64,000 bases of DNA from Octopus vulgaris (Eukaryota): positions 31,310,001 through 31,374,000 of the forward strand of contig OX597814.1 in NCBI GenBank assembly GCA_951406725.2. The letters are read 5' to 3'. Shown here in pieces: positions 876 to 60,118 of the stretch. The notes below the pieces were generated by a model. That model did no database searches. It saw only the letters and a list, made by a program, of their open reading frames with translations, and was not told where the DNA came from. Numbering within the stretch: position 1 is the first letter of the stretch; each line of letters starts with the position of its first letter. Made by a program: the position numbers and the translations under genes.

Positions 876-3573
876 GATTTTGATTTTGATTTGATTTTGA
901 TTTTTCCAGTTTCAGCTTATGAGCTGTGGCCATGCTGGGGCACCGCCATTTGGTGTTGCTACTTGGTTTCACTTCATGAAGGCTTTCTAGCAGCTTCTAT
1001 TTGGTGCATGAGAGAGTTCGATGCAGCTGCCCTCATCTGCCCCTCCTGCCGTGAAGTTGGTTCATCTGGGACACCTGACAGGAAGAGATCCAGCTTCATT
1101 TTAAAGACATCTGTATCCACCCCATGCAGGTCTCTCAGGTTCTTCGGGAGGATATTGAAGAGCTGTGGGCCTCGGAAACCCAGGCTATCACAGAATCTTG
1201 TCCTACATCTTGATGGCAAGTTTGGAGTCCTAGGCACCACGCAGTGGCGCCCAGTTCTGGCATTTGCGTAACTCTCGATGCCAAAGTTCAGGACACTTCC
1301 CTCCAGGATCTTCCAGATGTATATTATGGCATATCTTTCCCGCCTACGCTCCAGGGAATATAATTTTAATTTCCTGAGTCTTTCCCAGTAGCTTACATTC
1401 TGCATAGAGGCTATCTTCTTCGTGTAGCTACGTTGGATCGCCTCGAGCTCTGTGATCAACTTGACACTGGATGGTGACCATAACTGAGAGCAGTAGTCAA
1501 AGTGGCTTAGGACAAGTGTCCTCCAGAGGACCATCATGGTTTCTTGTTCTCTTGTTCTAAAGGTTCTGAGGATCCATCCGGCCAGTCGTCTACATTTCAT
1601 TGCCAATTTAGCAACATGTACACGAAAGGTCGCGTCATCACTCATGTAAATACCCAGGTCACGCACTGATTGTGCCTCTGGGATTGCTATTCCTCCGGGT
1701 CCAGTGTATTCATTGGGTATTGCATTTAGTTTTGCATGCTGATAGTATAGAGCTTGAAACTTTTCAGCATTGAACTGCATGCTATTCTTTTCGGCCCACT
1801 TGTATATTTTGTCTAGCTCACATTGCAGGTGTTTAGTGTCCTCAGGGTTCTGTATTGCCTGTGAAACTTTTGTATCATCTGCATAACTTGTGATCGTGGC
1901 CCTCTGCGTGGCTGAGGGCATGTCTGAGAGGGTCATTATGAACAGTAGTGGTCCCAGAACAGTGCCCTGCGGAACACCGCTCACTATTTGCGTGTTAATG
2001 GAAGTGGCCCCATTGGCCACTACCACCTGACTTCTATCTTTCAGAAAGTCATGAAGCCATTCTCCCAGTTTTCCAACTATGTTGAGATCACGCAGTTTGT
2101 GACATATCATTCCATGATCGACTTTATCAAAGGCCTTTGCAAAGTCGAGATATATCACTTCCACATTTGAGTGGTTGAGCAGCCGTTTCAGCACCCAGTC
2201 ATAGTGTTGTAGGAGCTGAGTTAAACAGCTTCTCCCTGGTCGGAAACCATTTTGGGTGTCGGGCAGCAAGTCATTTTCTTCAAGGAAGGTGATCAGCTTC
2301 CTTCTGACTATTCATTCCATGACCTTGCTGATGTGTGAGGTCAGAGAGATAGGTCTATAGTTCTTGGCTTCCGCTCTGCTACCTCCTTTATGAATGGGGC
2401 ATATTTTACCTTCCTTCAGTTTTCTTGGAAGTTTGCCAGCTGCAAGGAAGCTCTGAAAGAGGAACTGCAGTGGTCTTGCTAGGACTCTCTTACATGCTTT
2501 TAGGAGGATTGCCGGGAATCCATCGGGGCCAGTAGCTGAGTCTGTTTTCATTTCATCTATAGCCTTGATTACATCGTCTTCCTTTATATCGATGTAATCT
2601 ATCGTCGCCGCCTCTGGTTTTATATCTGCAGTGGTAAAAAAGTCAGTTGGATTGGTGATTTGGAGATGCCCAAGGGGTGGAGTGAAAACACTCTTGAATT
2701 GCTCATTCAGTATTTCACTTACCCTCATTGGTTTTCCTGTAAGTGTGCCATTCTTTTCGAGGAGTGGCCCTATTCTACAGTGCACCGTAGCTGTTTCTTT
2801 GGCATACCTGTAGAAAGCTCTGGGGTTAGATTTTATGTTGTCTATAGCCCAGGCTTCTTTGTCTGCTCTTTCCTTTTCATGGGAGAGTTTCAGACATTTT
2901 TCGATTTCCAACAGTTTTATTTTTAGGCGGGACTTTTCACTGCTTTCAATCTGTTTGTTTAGGCGATTTGAAAATTCTGTACGCCGTCTCATTAGAATTT
3001 TCCTCTCTCTGGGGATTTTGTTCTTGTGTACAGTGGCCTTTCTCTCTGGGACATATTTGTAGCATATGGCTTGCATTACAGACATGAATTGTTGAAGTTT
3101 CACGTCGATGTCTGGCGAGGAGAGACATTTAGGCCAGTTTTGTTTGAGGATCTCTTTCTCAATTTGTTTCCAGTTTGCCTTATGGTAGTTCCAAGCTGGA
3201 AAGATTCTGGGGTTTCTTGTAGGCTGCAAGTCCGTGCTCTCTTTTGGCCCGTACATGGTCAGCTCTATCATGTTGTGATCCGAGAGTAGTGTCGGTGTCA
3301 CTTTCACATTATGGATGAGATCCGTGTCATTTGTGAAGCAGAGATCCAGTGTGTTACCTGCCCTGGTTGGTTGGAGTATTACCTGCTCCATGTACAGGGT
3401 GTTGATGAGGTTCAGGAGGGACCTCGCCTGTCCTCGTTCACATCTTGTCATTCCTGGGAGAGAAAGGCCCTCGGGCCATCTGACATTTGGCAGATTGAAG
3501 TCTCCCATAAGAAGTACACTTATGTGTTGTTCTAATGTGGTTAGAACTTCTATTTTTATAAGACAGTCTTCTT
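876..3573 (-). mobile_element. 5'-truncated CR1-group (APE-RT) LINE with intact 3' UTR and (AAAATC)n tail
   Basis: APE C-terminal motifs (MGDFNLP, TRAGNTLDLCF, SDHNMI), RT motifs (NYRPISLTS, QNGFRPGRSC, YLDFAKAFDKV, GVPQGTVLGPLLF, YADDT), short 3' UTR and a tandem tail at 876-905. Confidence 0.95.
974..3571 (-). pseudogene. LINE ORF2 (endonuclease C-terminal part plus reverse transcriptase) with one in-frame TGA at 2312-2314
   Basis: ORFs 2312..3508 and 974..2269 are in the same frame and read SHISKVME*IVRRKLITFLEENDLLPDTQNGF; the frame stays open upstream to 3571. Confidence 0.92.
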
Positions 3574-8713: not shown

Positions 8714-9210
8714 ATCGTGACGTATTTTTGCCATTTCAATATGGCTAACCCCTAAGGGTGGATGCTACTGTAGTTTTTAGCCCCAGGAGGACACACTCCT
8801 CCAGCTGGCCATAGACACACTTTCTGTGTCCTGTCAGTATTTGCAAAGGGAAGTCATCCTTCCCGTCTTCAACTTATGATACACACGGACTCGAGTTTCG
8901 AGGTATTGACCTCTCGTCAGCGTGTGACAATCATAGTTGTCGCCGAGAATTAGATTTCCTTCACAAATACTTATACTTTTTCCAGCGCCCACTGTCGCTG
9001 ATATTGAAAAAGTGAAATCAAACAATGATAAATATCAAAGTGAGTTATATACAGTAGCGGTAACACATCGTGACGTATTTTTGCCATTTCAATATGGCTA
9101 ACCCCTAAGGGTGGATGCTACTGTAGTTTTTAGCCCCAGGAGGACACACTCCTCCAGCTGGCCATAGACACACTTTCTGTGTCCTGTCAGTATTTGCAAA
9201 GGGAAGTCAT
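8714..9210 (-). mobile_element. Hammerhead-containing non-coding element (retrozyme- or mini-Penelope-like): 353-bp unit plus 144-bp perfect terminal direct repeat
   Basis: 8714-8857 is identical to 9067-9210; the HHR lies in the unique part; (TA)n on both sides; no ORF of note. Confidence 0.85.
8870..8939 (-). ncRNA. Type I hammerhead ribozyme, canonical core, extended stem I
   Basis: Minus strand CAAC-TATGAT-TGT-CACACG / CTGACGA / GAGGT-CAAT-ACCTC / GAA / ACTCGAGT / C / CGTGTG-T-ATCATA-A-GTTG; predicted GUC cleavage between 8888 and 8887. Confidence 0.92.
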
Positions 9211-17070: not shown

Positions 17071-17943
17071 CTTGAAAGTTCCTGGTTTTGCCAATTTCCA
17101 TGTCACACCGGCAGAGGTCTTCTTGCGCCAATAGGAAGGTGTGTGTGTGTGTGTGTAGTGCAAGCCACATCCACTGAATATTATTCCTCTGCACAGGTAC
17201 TTCCCGTACTCCAAATCTTGGTAAAATCAATGAATTTGTCTATTTTTACTGTTACGACTACTACCACTAACAGCAACAATACTAAAGGTCCTCATTATGA
17301 CAATAACATGAGAAAATACTAGCTTAGCCAAGAGAAAAGACAGTAAAAATTACCTTATTTGGGGGTTTAAAGTTCTATTACTATAGCTACTCCTACCACT
17401 ACTACTACCACCACCACCACCACCAACACCAACACCAACACCAACACCAACACTAACAACAACAACAACAATAAAGGAGATGATAATTCTGATGATGATA
17501 ACTGAAGTGTAAAAATCCCTGGGAAATGTTGTTTGCCACATTTCTAAAAATAGCCTAATTACTGCCTTGGCCAGGGTCAAAATACAGGTCCCTCGACATG
17601 TTCAACAAACCGTGACGCCTAAGCCAAACACCAATCAACTTAAGTAATTTAGTAAAATCACACACTGTTTGGTCAGAATACACTCTGCAAAACTTAACAT
17701 TGTGGAGCCTATACAAATGTATTTAAGACGCAGTTTACCCATCTCACCACAGTTGTAAATCTTAAAACATAACTGTCACCACTACTACATGAACCTGAAG
17801 ATTGCATAGTTCAATGCATGAAAGTATTAGTGCAATCAGAATGGACATTTAATATTCTGTCATTTCATTAAATTATATTATCTTATATTATATTATTATA
17901 AGAGTGTAAATAAAACGTGAAAATCTTTGAGCAATGCATACAT

Positions 17944-28977: not shown

Positions 28978-29034
<57 letters not shown>

Positions 29035-29058
29035 TAGATAGATAGATAGATAGATATA

Positions 29059-29181
29059 TTTCTGTAGAAGAGCGTAGGCTCGAAACGTAAAAGACTTTTT
29101 CTCTTCCTGAGCGTTATACTAATACATCTGCTTGTTTTGTACACCACCTGTCTTCGTCGTTTGTTTTTTCGTAAACTTTCG

Positions 29182-29182
<1 letters not shown>
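29059..29182 (+). mobile_element. ~125-bp element starting with a minimal HHR-like motif (second copy 53964-54098)
   Basis: TTT/CTGTAGA/A/GAGC-GTAG-GCTC/GAA/ACGT/A/AAA; flanked by microsatellites. Confidence 0.7.
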
Positions 29183-29247
<65 letters not shown>

Positions 29248-36100: not shown

Positions 36101-36163
<63 letters not shown>

Positions 36164-36164
36164 T

Positions 36165-36346
36165 TATTTTATTCTATAGGACTAGAACGGTTTCATTCAA
36201 ATGAAATCTTCAGAGCTTCCTGAAGATTTCATTTGAATGAAACAGTTCTAGTCCTGTAGAAGCTCCTTCTATAAAATAAATTAATTTACTCTGCTATGTA
36301 TTGAGTACCTTATTTACTGTGGTTAACCACGACTCAACCCGGGACC

Positions 36347-36350
<4 letters not shown>
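36165..36350 (+). mobile_element. HHR-bearing short element with inverted 5' duplication, between (TA)n tracts (3' tail also at 39971-40033, minus strand)
   Basis: Arms 36172-36213 and 36220-36261; tail TACTCTGC.ATGTATTGAGTACC...GGGACCTAC repeated elsewhere. Confidence 0.8.
36213..36265 (+). ncRNA. Type I hammerhead ribozyme with U-U at 10.1/11.1
   Basis: GAGCTTC / CTGAAGA / T-TTC-ATTT-GAA-T / GAA / ACAG-TTCTAGTC-CTGT / A / GAAGCTC; predicted GUA cleavage after 36258. Confidence 0.78.
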
Positions 36351-36390
<40 letters not shown>

Positions 36391-39955: not shown

Positions 39956-40082
39956 CATAAGTATATATATGTAGGTCCCGGGTTGAGTCGGGGTTAACCA
40001 CAGTAAATAAGGTACTCAATACATTGCAGAGTATATATATATATATGTATATATATACAGATATATATATACAGATATATAT

Positions 40083-53929: not shown

Positions 53930-53963
<34 letters not shown>

Positions 53964-53964
<1 letters not shown>

Positions 53965-54001
53965 CTTTCTGTTGAAGAGCGTAGGCTCGAAACGTAAAAG
54001 A
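53964..54001 (+). ncRNA. Minimal hammerhead-like motif with palindromic stem III and U6
   Basis: TCTTT / CTGTTGA / A / GAGC-GTAG-GCTC / GAA / ACGT / A / AAAGA. Confidence 0.65.
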
Positions 54002-54097
54002 CTTGTTTTATTTATATTCCTGAGCGCCATACTAATACAATTGTTTGTTTGTATTCCACTTGCCTTCATCTTTTGTTTATTTTCATAAAACTTCCCG

Positions 54098-54141
<44 letters not shown>

Positions 54142-54831
54142 GGTAGAAATTTGAAATTGATATCAACCAATTAAAACCAGTGGCTTAGCATATTTAAAAA
54201 ATCCGAAGATTAGAAATTATGTTACATTCAAAACTAAGTAATGCCGATTTGACGTATATGTTTAGCATATTAGGCGCCCACTTTAGTGGTCATTCCTCTT
54301 AATTTTGTATGTAACACAATTTTTAATCTTCGAATTTTTTAAATATGCTAAGCCACTGGTTTTAATTGATTAATATCAATTTCTAACCTTATTATTTAAT
54401 TTTAAATGAAAATGTTCTCTAAACGGTAAATTAGCTGCTGAAATTCATTAACTGCTGAGTTATTTCTGGCCTCAATACGCCAAAGTGAAGACATTTGAAA
54501 AATACACCCAAATATAAATTGTAGAACTTTATACATACTTTATTTCGGTTGAGCGTTCTGTATCTAGTTTTGGAAATTGTGTTTTGTAAGCGACAGACTA
54601 GGCTGACGATCTTGCAGATATTTGCCTGTTTACATACGTAAATATTTACAAGTGAAACCGTGGTACGTAGGTATTCGTCTTTAATTTCGTATTTTCATTT
54701 GTCCTGCTCGTTTTTATATTTTGGCGTTTTGCTGAGATTTTATCTTGAGAACACATTCTTCGTGGTAATGGCGATTTGACGTCTATGTTTAGCATAATAG
54801 GTGTCCACTTTAGTGGTCATTCCTCTTAATT
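54142..54831 (+). mobile_element. Penelope pLTR-like non-coding element: 527-bp period, 67-bp direct repeat, ~95-bp inverted 5' segment, internal HHR
   Basis: 54238-54304 resembles 54765-54831; 54142-54238 is an inverted copy of 54298-54389; (TA)n on both sides. Confidence 0.8.
54588..54681 (+). ncRNA. Type I hammerhead ribozyme with a long stem II and U-U at 10.1/11.1
   Basis: CTAGG / CTGACGA / T-CTTGCAGATATTTGC...GTAAATATTTACAAG-T (14 of 15 pairs) / GAA / ACCGTGGT / A / CGTAG. Confidence 0.75.
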
Positions 54832-54928: not shown

Positions 54929-55194
54929 TATCTTTAAATGTAATATGTGACAATTATTCGGTAGCCATGATAAAACTCCGATTTTCAGATGTCGGGGTGG
55001 AAATCCACGCCGCCATCTTTTCAGTTATCCGGCCATCGGAAAAATGCTATGAAAATGACCCCTCTATTTCTGAAGCATTTTTTCTGATGGCTGGATAACT
55101 GAAGAGATGGCGGCGTGGATTTCCACTCCGACATCCGAAAATCGGAGTTTTATCATGGCTACCGAATAATTGTCACACATTACATTTAGAGATA
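54929..55194. repeat. Palindrome of two inverted ~120-bp PLE pLTR copies, each with an HHR-like motif (55094-55154 +, 54969-55029 -)
   Basis: Arms 54929-55048 and 55074-55194; GATAA / CTGAAGA / GATG...CATC-C / GAA / AATCGGAGT / T / TTATC; homologous to 59175-59268. Confidence 0.85.
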
Positions 55195-58715: not shown

Positions 58716-59268
58716 TACAAAAGAAAAGCGACACAATTGTCTAATCATATGGTCTTTAAGAGATAAAGGTGTCGATTATAACATACAATGGAAGATTTTG
58801 GCCAGATGTAAGCCCTATACTAACGGCAGCGGAAGGTGCGGTCTATGCGACATGGAGAGATGGCTTATCTGGAAAAGCAGCTTAGACCCTACTACATGTC
58901 TAAATACAAGGACAGAGCTTTTCGGATCATGCCCACATGTGACTAAGTTTCTGTTACGTTTTTGGTCCCCTAAAGAAAACAGATAGAACATGCTTTCTAT
59001 GTTATGTCCCAAGAAGAATTTATATATTTTTATATATTTTTTATATATTTTTTATGTATTTTTATATAATTTTTATGACGAAAAATGCGAGCGATGTATA
59101 AGTACGCAGGCAAGCAGAGTTATAACAGAGTAATTTCCCTTTATTTAACGGTATTTTTTCATAACGTTTTCAAATAGCCAGAAAACCGAAGAGATGGTGT
59201 TGTGGATTTCCACTTCGGCATCTGAAACTCAGAGTTTTATCTTGACTACCGAGTAATGTAACATATTG
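58716..59268 (+). mobile_element. 3' end of a Penelope-like element: GIY-YIG C-terminal ORF remnant plus 3' UTR/pLTR with an HHR-like motif
   Basis: [26 protein letters not shown]...YTNGSGRCGLCDMER...LNTRTELFGSCPH (one frameshift); HHR-like motif at 59175-59248; (TA)n on both sides. Confidence 0.88.
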
Positions 59269-59276
59269 TATAGATA

Positions 59277-59332
<56 letters not shown>

Positions 59333-59358
59333 ATGTTGGGACCAGACACGAGACTCTA

Positions 59359-59390
<32 letters not shown>

Positions 59391-59392
<2 letters not shown>

Positions 59393-60118
59393 TAGAGTCT
59401 CGTATCTGGTCCCAACATGGCATCGCAAGGAGAACAAAAGTTGCTGTGTACCGTGCTTGTGTACTGACATCGCTTCTCTACTCATGTGAGATATGGACTC
59501 TGTACAAACGTCAGGTAAGGGTCCTTGAACGTTTTCATCAGAGATGTCTCAGACACATTCTCAATGTTGGCTGGACCTCAAAAATTCCAGCCACACAGAT
59601 CCTGAGGACAGCTGATATCTTGAGTATTGAGGCGATGGTACACAAGCACCGGTTGCGTTGGACTGGACACCTTATTAGAATGGAGGATAGAAGGATTCCT
59701 AAGCAGATGCTCTATGGAGAACTTGTGAATGGAAGGAGACTCCGGCAGAAACTAAGGCTACGATTTAAGGACTGTGTCAAGTCCTCGTTAAAGGCTTTTG
59801 ATATACAGGACACTGACTGGGAGAACAATGCCTGTCATCGCCACAGATGGAGGAAGCAGGTTAAGGAGGGGATCGATACTTTTGAGAGAGCACATATCCA
59901 GCATGAAGAACTTAAGCGAGCTGCACGAAAGCGCACGGCTCGTATAGTGAATGGGGAAAGCTTGGTCTGCAATGTTTGCAGTCGTGTATGCTTGTCAAGA
60001 GCAGGGCTCATTAGCCACCAACGGAGCCGCAAATGCAAAATATAAGTTAGTCCTAGAGCGCACAATGTTCCTGAAGGTCGGCAATGGTCTTCCTCGGTCA
60101 CGAGTGGACGGCCATCAT
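59391..60118 (+). mobile_element. 5'-truncated RTE (BovB-like) LINE 3' end with an open ORF to 60045
   Basis: TKVAVYRACVLTSLLYSCEIW, FHQRCLRHIL, RLRWTGHLIRM, RIPKQMLYGEL, CNVCSRVC..GLISHQR, 3' hairpin. Confidence 0.93.

What the first reader, a model, noticed from the sequence alone, without database searches (positions are those of the whole stretch)
36213..36265. Hammerhead with perfect stems I and III but a U-U pair replacing G10.1-C11.1, locked by an inverted duplication
Seen: 7-bp stem I (GAGCUUC/GAAGCUC), CUGAAGA, GAA, 4-bp stem III and a GUA site, but stem II opens with U-U and is only about 3 bp. The same U-U is present in the inverted copy at 36172-36213, so it predates the inversion. 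If both arms are transcribed, a ~42-bp hairpin would sequester the core. Inference: a natural variant class rather than decay, because an unrelated family (54588-54681) has the same substitution.
Basis: partly seen in the sequence, partly recalled or inferred. Interest (0 to 1): 0.7.

Follow-up and report, generated by a model that had tools for sequence, protein, structure and literature searches.

The report
Penelope hammerhead with uridine-uridine mismatch
This is the broken-off end of a very abundant repeat, likely a Penelope-type jumping gene, whose hammerhead (self-cutting RNA) motif carries a U·U mismatch already known from such elements in other animals, and the mirror-image copy beside it is likely an accident of insertion that would fold this one copy shut, so the finding is mostly ordinary.

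Summary
The motif is real: a type I hammerhead with U10.1·U11.1 and a 42-bp inverted arm; 0 of 150 shuffles match it. Contigs from four organisms, laid at very high depth, show no other letter at either U at the 3% level, so U·U is the family consensus, not decay of this copy. It is not new. It is reported in Perreault 2011 and in an axolotl retrozyme family (about 60,000 copies, weakly active, better as a dimer), and I count it in 14 of 26 Hydra-clade Penelope rows of a published table. The locus reads (TA)n, inverted tail-less end, forward end with tail, (TA)n: the known layout of 5'-truncated Penelope insertions, probably in an octopod. The inverted arm is rare, has variable junctions and has lost its stem I partner, so it is probably an integration by-product, not a regulator, though it would lock this copy. 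The second family also has consensus U·U but may share ancestry. A slipped hairpin hiding G12-A14 confounds the proposed G-C test. Cleavage and the parent ORF are not shown. The scan earlier noted other fixed helix II mismatches and two-armed insertions, but not this family.

The parts
36107..36159 (.). Left target: (CT)n(AT)n microsatellite
   Evidence: sequence
36162..36213 (-). Inverted, tail-less copy of the element end: core, U·U helix II and helix III; two private substitutions; a 10-nt deletion removes the stem I 3' strand; runs out into (TA)n
   Evidence: depth only 5-2000 against 9e4-3e6 on the forward arm
36213..36265 (+). Type I hammerhead: stem I 36214-36219/36259-36264 (plus a junction-derived pair 36213/36265), core 36220-36226 and 36239-36241, predicted cut after A36258
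   Evidence: cleavage not tested
36227..36238 (+). Helix II: U10.1 (36227) opposite U11.1 (36238), 3 bp and loop AUUU; family consensus
   Evidence: no other letter at 3% or more in 4 of 4 runs
36227..36242 (+). Competing slipped hairpin (near-palindrome, 14 of 16 bases) that pairs away G12-A13-A14
   Evidence: pair probabilities 0.66-0.76 against 0.012-0.016 for the active register; 4 contigs of run X1 fold back at 36227
36242..36257 (+). Helix III with a quasi-palindromic loop; can pair with a second copy (dimer form)
   Evidence: self-duplex -12.8 kcal/mol against -1.4 for one hairpin
36255..36273 (+). Downstream 8-bp hairpin that covers the cleavage site and the stem I 3' strand
   Evidence: -5.3 kcal/mol; part of the lowest-energy fold with the 3' flank
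36282..36349 (+). Optional 3' extension ('tail', about 68 nt): some family copies stop at 36278-36285 and run into (TA)n, others go on
   Evidence: loose ends and bridging contigs in 4 of 4 runs; solo copy at 39970-40044
36350..36388 (.). Right target: (AT)n microsatellite
   Evidence: sequence
54598..54670 (+). Second family: hammerhead with U10.1 (54610) and U11.1 (54653); this copy has private changes at 54601 and 54660, and the family majority letters there give a 5-bp stem I and a palindromic helix III

Best explanation
The stretch is one truncated copy of a very high-copy repeat, likely the terminal repeat (pLTR end) of a Penelope-like retroelement or of its non-coding passenger, in which U·U at the base of helix II is the family consensus; the family ribozyme is predicted to cut slowly, probably as a dimer or with protein help, and the inverted arm likely arose during insertion and would keep this one copy folded shut. 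Shown: the motif, the consensus U·U in four organisms, the (TA)n target, two alternative 3' ends, and the rarity and variable junctions of the inversion. Inferred: a Penelope reverse transcriptase/GIY-YIG endonuclease nicked the (TA)n target and copied the element RNA from two start points, one with and one without the tail. The two short cDNA arms were joined head to head at stem I, by fold-back or annealing on short palindromes. The promoter-side part and any ORF were lost, so this locus is dead on arrival. In the parent element U·U is a tolerated, weaker replacement of G10.1-C11.1. The closest match of the ribozyme layout and target is the Hydra clade of Penelope elements.
For: Consensus: 6710, 818, 931 and 162 contigs laid; the only listed substitution is at 36284, none in 36214-36283. 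Penelope layout: papers describe 5'-truncation, an adjacent inverted 5'-truncated copy, a tail at one end only and (TA)n targets, and two reverse-transcription start sites that define the tail, with both DNA strands cut and extended. The locus shows each of these features. Inversions are routine: other junction forms in this family (9- and 13-nt gaps in run X1, a 2-nt insertion in X3 and X6, fold-back at 36227), 9 opposite-strand joints among the 15 shown for family 2, and two more inverted repeats at 54150-54386 and 54929-55194. U·U is tolerated: 14 of 26 Hydra-clade rows in Craig 2021 File S2 (13 of 24 distinct motifs, three phyla, inner pairs varying; my count); an axolotl family of about 60,000 copies cuts 22% in 1 h as a monomer and much better as a dimer; Perreault 2011 reports natural U10.1-U11.1. 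Helix III has the same four pairs as four Hydra-clade rows and can dimerise.
Against: No ORF, reverse transcriptase or tandem unit of this family was seen: no genome is held, and pattern scans of viral and metagenome contigs found 0 matches. Penelope membership therefore rests on layout alone. The tail is about 68 nt, longer than the 30-40 bp in print. The family is too uniform to show covariation, so selection on U·U is not shown within it. Rfam gives no hammerhead hit even at E<=10, whereas the canonical site at 8920 scores 32.2 bits. The active fold is predicted at only 0.6% (0.06% with the 3' flank), though the canonical site scores lower still (2e-5), so this model does not discriminate.
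Confidence: 0.75

Rival explanations
1. The family ribozyme is a dead passenger. The master element carried a crippled hammerhead (U·U, a 3-bp helix II, two competing hairpins) and amplified anyway, because cleavage is not needed for insertion.
For: Slipped hairpin favoured by 2.1 kcal/mol and a 3' hairpin over the cleavage site. In the anole Penelope system ribozyme mutants did not affect insertion in vitro, and no RNA-seq reads ended at the cut site. The family is uniform, so descent alone explains the consensus.
Against: All core bases, stem I and stem III are intact in the consensus of four organisms. U·U hammerheads cut in vitro and recur with varying inner pairs. Nearest-neighbour folding omits the core's non-canonical pairs and also scores the canonical 8920 site as unfolded.
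Confidence: 0.2
2. The inverted arm is a selected device: it locks the ribozyme or yields a hairpin RNA that feeds small-RNA silencing of the family.
For: The hairpin is very stable (-65 kcal/mol, z -16.5) and would abolish the active fold. Related junctions occur in three organisms.
Against: The arm is 0.005-0.06% of family depth, junctions differ between copies, no listed contig spans this locus's form in the four runs, the arm carries private changes and a deletion, and inverted truncated copies are a described by-product. The TATAAA-containing upstream flank of the family is missing here.
Confidence: 0.04
3. There is no U·U pair: U36227 pairs with A36237 as a Watson-Crick 10.1-11.1 pair, and U36238 is an extra base before G12.
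For: This register also gives three pairs.
Against: It is 2.9 kcal/mol less stable than the U·U register (-6.7 against -9.6). Family 2 and the published rows have inner helices that fix the U·U register.
Confidence: 0.04

Closest known systems
Hammerheads of Hydra-clade Penelope-like elements (Craig et al. 2021, PMC8557442; read: passages, section 11, File S1 Hydra sheet, File S2)
   Same: Type I hammerhead near the element's 3' end; U after A9 and U before G12 in 14 of 26 rows (my count; the table puts both U in its 'core' columns); 3-4 bp near-palindromic helix III; (TA)n target; an inverted truncated copy with a second hammerhead in Penelope-13_HM; the clade has an octopus member.
   Different: Not the octopus family listed there (Hydra-1_Obim has another hammerhead, and two short motifs of this site gave 0 hits in the supplement text, where long runs are cut). 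Loop III is 8 nt instead of 1-3; helix II is A/U-rich with a slipped register; no ORF was seen.
Axolotl retrozyme hammerhead HHR_Amex2 (Cervera & de la Peña 2020, PMC7229834; read: passages and section 15)
   Same: High-copy animal repeat family with a U·U mismatch at the base of helix II and a firmer helix III; weak as a monomer, better as a dimer.
   Different: That family sits in 350-bp tandem units with circular RNAs and a predicted loop 1-loop 2 contact. Here the unit, expression and any tertiary contact are unknown.
Natural core variant U10.1-U11.1 (Perreault et al. 2011, PMC3088659; read: section 8, passages, Figure S6 as extracted text)
   Same: Same substitution, described as natural and as the best-tolerated mispair (citing Ruffner 1990, which I did not see).
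   Different: By my reading of the figure layout the tested example is from phage PaP3, not from an animal retroelement; no rate for it was visible to me.
Minimal and palindromic-helix-III hammerheads in pLTRs of metazoan Penelope elements (Cervera & de la Peña 2014, PMC4209133; read: parts 1-2 of 4, supplement parts 1-2 of 3)
   Same: Type I, mostly dispersed single motifs from truncated elements, pairs on opposite strands, low activity, dimer-type helix III. By my reading of the extracted figures the Hydra and Drosophila willistoni rows have U·U.
   Different: The text stresses a highly conserved G10.1-C11.1 and an extra base after A9; this family has neither.

Membership tests
Type I hammerhead ribozyme | Core CUGANGA and GAAA, with A15.1-U16.1 and H17 | tested here: met
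   36220-36226, 36239-36242, 36257-36258; no other letter at 3% or more
Type I hammerhead ribozyme | Three helices around the core, helix I open | tested here: met
   6-7, 3 and 4 bp; 0 of 150 shuffles
Type I hammerhead ribozyme | Canonical G10.1-C11.1 pair | tested here: not met
   U·U; a published, active natural variant, so the site is filed as a variant, not as canonical
Type I hammerhead ribozyme | Match to Rfam Hammerhead_1 (RF00163) or another hammerhead model | tested here: not met
   0 hammerhead families among 6 hits at E<=10 and 0 among 84; the control site at 8920 scores 32.2 bits, gathering score 34
Type I hammerhead ribozyme | Helix I-helix II tertiary contact | tested here: inconclusive
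   The upstream flank is replaced by the inversion; family loose ends show no clear extension of helix I
Type I hammerhead ribozyme | Self-cleavage after H17 | not testable with these tools
   Only DNA-type contigs were laid; no raw RNA reads
Penelope-like elements | Hammerhead close to the 3' end of a dispersed high-copy repeat | tested here: met
   Core about 130 nt before the end at 36349; depth 9e4-3e6
Penelope-like elements | 5'-truncation with an adjacent inverted copy; tail at one end only | tested here: met
   The inverted arm ends at the first end (about 36281), the forward arm carries the tail; solo tail elsewhere. The tail is longer than the published 30-40 bp
Penelope-like elements | ORF with a Penelope reverse transcriptase and GIY-YIG endonuclease | not testable with these tools
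   No genome held; 12 of the window's 53 long ORFs were scanned, none Penelope-type, the clear hits being a LINE
Hydra clade of Penelope-like elements | Protein motifs (RWK, DKT, C-terminal endonuclease without CCHH) | not testable with these tools
   No ORF of this family available; not filed as a member
Hydra clade of Penelope-like elements | (TA)n insertion preference | tested here: met
   Both flanks; loose ends into (TA)n in 4 of 4 runs. Also true of Naiads, so not diagnostic
Non-LTR retrozymes | Short non-coding tandem unit with one hammerhead per unit, expressed as circular RNA | tested here: inconclusive
   No tandem unit at this locus. Family 2 has a 527-bp period and the 8920 family a 353-bp period; circular RNA not testable

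The most novel reading that the evidence does not exclude
U·U is the signature of a lineage of Penelope hammerheads tuned to be off by default. In this octopod family it works together with a slipped helix II and a downstream hairpin as a built-in switch that only dimer formation or the element's own protein turns on, and the same palindromes seed the fold-back inversions. Tens of thousands of such ribozymes would be invisible to Rfam.
Probability: 0.15. Interest if true: 0.55.

Novelty: new member of a known kind. Interest (0 to 1): 0.25.

Why it matters
The single locus matters little: it is probably a dead insertion. The family is a useful example. It is very abundant in at least four related organisms, Rfam misses it, and it suggests that descriptors demanding a pair at 10.1-11.1 undercount animal hammerheads. 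U·U is the commonest state in the published Hydra-clade table, yet the main text of that paper has no passage on it under five search terms. If the slipped register proved to be a protein- or dimer-released switch, it would give a testable handle on why Penelope hammerheads are slow and what they do.

Tried and rejected
Own-genome search: no genome held. Exact 24-base pattern: 0 matches in viral contigs and 0 in metagenome contigs; the second metagenome scan was not used. Whole-window Rfam scan: the 150 rows shown of 439 were microRNA-like and other hairpin matches, mostly on microsatellites, none at gathering score; the microRNA hits on the inverted repeat are generic hairpin matches and were rejected. 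No second copy of this hammerhead in the window, and no match to the family's upstream TATAAA-containing motif (0 found, 2.1 expected). Folding probabilities were rejected as a test of activity because the canonical control scores worse. The weak U·U site at 17795 was not used as support: stem I is broken, and the loose descriptor hits in 10 of 150 shuffles. Summed contig depth was not taken as a copy number; 'order of 1e4 or more' is a rough ratio to single-locus contig depth. Lünse et al. 2017 is not held and Ruffner 1990 was seen only as cited; both may give rates for U·U. Six literature searches listed no paper on an octopus U·U hammerhead family; most subscription journals and Repbase were not searchable. 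Earlier scan notes by sequence and by nearby place were blank.

Full report
Observation. The motif is as described: stem I 36213-36219/36259-36265, CUGAAGA 36220-36226, U at 10.1 (36227), three pairs closed by AUUU, U at 11.1 (36238), GAA, a 4-bp stem III with an 8-nt loop, and GUA with A17 at 36258. A strict descriptor finds only this site in the window and nothing in 150 of 150 dinucleotide shuffles. The inverted arm 36172-36213 matches 40 of 42 bases and folds at -65.3 kcal/mol, z -16.5. It goes on about 10 bases further out beyond a 10-nt deletion that removes the stem I 3' strand, and it has substitutions in stem III and in the cleavage triplet. The minus-strand copy is therefore a broken hammerhead.

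Host and setting. The window is eukaryotic, rich in microsatellites and repeats. No genome is held. A LINE reverse transcriptase at 974-2311 has an Argonauta hians protein at 63% identity as its best hit with an organism name, so the host is probably an octopod; this is an inference. The locus reads: (CT)n(AT)n, inverted arm, forward arm, (AT)n.

Family consensus. Contigs of four runs from four organisms (X1, X3, X6, X7; 6710, 818, 931 and 162 contigs laid at 80% identity or more) pile on 36216-36280 at summed depths up to 3.2e6, 1.4e6, 8.7e5 and 9.2e4. The only substitution listed at 3% or more is at 36284, so both U and the whole core are consensus in 4 of 4 runs. The family is too uniform to show covariation, so within it U·U shows descent from a master copy, not selection.

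Element anatomy. Family contigs diverge before 36214 into an A/T-rich flank with TATAAA, which this locus lacks; the seventh stem I pair thus probably comes from the junction. At the 3' side, some copies stop at 36278-36285 and run into (TA)n in all four runs, while others bridge on past 36310. The inverted arm stops at that first end, the forward arm carries the extension to 36349, and a solo copy of the extension lies between (TA)n runs at 39970-40044. Craig et al. 2021 (PMC8557442; passages) describe this for Penelope-like elements: 5'-truncation, an adjacent inverted truncated copy, a 30-40 bp tail at one end, and microsatellite targets. Frangieh et al. 2024 (PMC11167929; parts 1-2 of 4) show that the tail lies between two reverse-transcription start sites and that both target strands are cut and extended. 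The tail here is longer (about 68 nt). No ORF of the family could be reached, so an autonomous element and a non-coding retrozyme-type passenger cannot be told apart; a 2026 preprint (10.64898/2026.07.22.740005; part 1 of 5) argues that the latter derive from the former.

The inversion. Depth on the inverted arm is 0.005-0.064% of the forward arm; this counts mainly contigs near this junction, so it measures this form and its close kin. Other copies show other junctions: 9- and 13-nt gaps in X1, a 2-base insertion that makes the junction a perfect palindrome in X3 and X6, and four X1 contigs that fold back at 36227 on the near-palindrome of helix II. Family 2 shows 9 opposite-strand joints at 9 different places among the 15 joints shown, and the window has two more such inverted repeats. 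If transcribed, the arm would abolish the active fold (predicted share about 1e-29), but the evidence points to an integration by-product seeded by short palindromes. That mechanism is inferred.

Second family. At 54603 the window copy is decayed: G54601 and G54660 are private or minority letters, and the majority letters give a 5-bp stem I and a palindromic helix III; N7 varies, as expected. Neither 54610 nor 54653 is among the 40 rows shown (24 rows hidden). For run X3 every T change counted in table 1 is accounted for by shown rows, so both U are consensus there; for X1, X6 and X7 one to four T changes are hidden. Cover at 54653 is thin (130-1430), and one X7 loose-end consensus shows a sister form with C at 11.1. 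This family has a 527-bp period, like a retrozyme. The two families share no sequence but may share ancestry.

What is known. Perreault et al. 2011 (PMC3088659; section 8) report natural U10.1-U11.1 and cite it as the best-tolerated mispair; in the extracted text of their figure of active variants I read it in phage PaP3. Cervera and de la Peña 2020 (PMC7229834; section 15) describe about 60,000 axolotl motifs with U·U at the base of helix II, cutting 22% in one hour as monomers and much better as dimers. In File S2 of Craig et al. 2021 I count U after A9 and U before G12 in 14 of 26 Hydra-clade rows (13 of 24 after dropping one second-strand row and one identical motif), from Hydra, a sea cucumber and a copepod, with different inner pairs. 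The others have G-C, G·U, U·C or, in the octopus row, an extra G and A-U. That paper's main text has no passage on the mismatch under five search terms. The extracted figures of Cervera and de la Peña 2014 show it, by my reading, for Hydra and Drosophila willistoni. The Hydra clade targets (TA)n and includes an octopus element with a different hammerhead. Helix III here has the same four pairs as four rows of that table. Clade membership needs the protein and was not testable.

How it likely works. In the parent RNA the hammerhead would cut after A17, slowly. U·U weakens helix II. The helix III region pairs with a second copy at -12.8 kcal/mol against -1.4 for one hairpin, as in dimer-type Penelope hammerheads. 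Two competing folds are built into the consensus: a slipped helix II that hides G12-A14 (pair probability 0.66-0.76) and an 8-bp hairpin over the cut site. The active fold is predicted at 0.6%, but the canonical site at 8920 scores 2e-5, so this does not show inactivity. The anole Penelope ribozyme cut only in the presence of its protein and was not needed for insertion in vitro, which fits both a protein-assisted and a dead-passenger reading. By inspection, a G-C revertant also breaks the slipped hairpin, so a separate control is needed.

Library visibility. Rfam gives no hammerhead hit on this site at E<=10, while the 8920 site scores 32.2 bits on Hammerhead_1.

Earlier scan notes (AI notes, unchecked) mention fixed C·C mismatches in Penelope hammerheads of other genomes and two-armed insertions in this genome. 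One of them pointed to the Hydra clade, which I then checked in the paper. None matched this family by sequence.

Verdict.

Noticed in passing
window 8882-8926 (minus strand), with a direct repeat 8714-8857 = 9067-9210: Canonical G-C type I hammerhead with a palindromic helix III inside a 353-bp unit with a 144-bp identical duplication: looks like a young retrozyme insertion.
   Followed up: partly
window 54150-54831: Family 2 insertion: inverted arm, a 67-bp end piece, then one 527-bp unit ending in the same piece and (TA)n; family contigs continue from the end back into the start, as for a tandem or circular template.
   Followed up: partly
window 54929-55194, with a relative at 59156-59296: Another inverted duplication with about 130-bp arms, each holding a hammerhead-like core (at 55099) with a 4-bp helix II and a pyrimidine before GAAA.
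   Followed up: no
window 17783-17850: Weak, decayed hammerhead-like site with U·U and a 5-bp helix II, resembling Hydra-clade motifs; stem I broken.
   Followed up: partly
window 53941-54138 and 29034-29224: Two copies (82% alike) of a short repeat between (TA)n runs with a minimal hammerhead-like core whose first bases are changed.
   Followed up: no
window 974-3571 (minus strand): Nearly intact LINE ORF (endonuclease plus reverse transcriptase) split by one stop codon; best hit with an organism name is from Argonauta hians.
   Followed up: partly
window 59331-59420: Short inverted repeat with (TA)n in its centre: two head-to-head 30-bp arms.
   Followed up: no
window 39970-40044 (minus strand): Solo copy of this family's tail, flanked by (TA)n on both sides.
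   Followed up: yes
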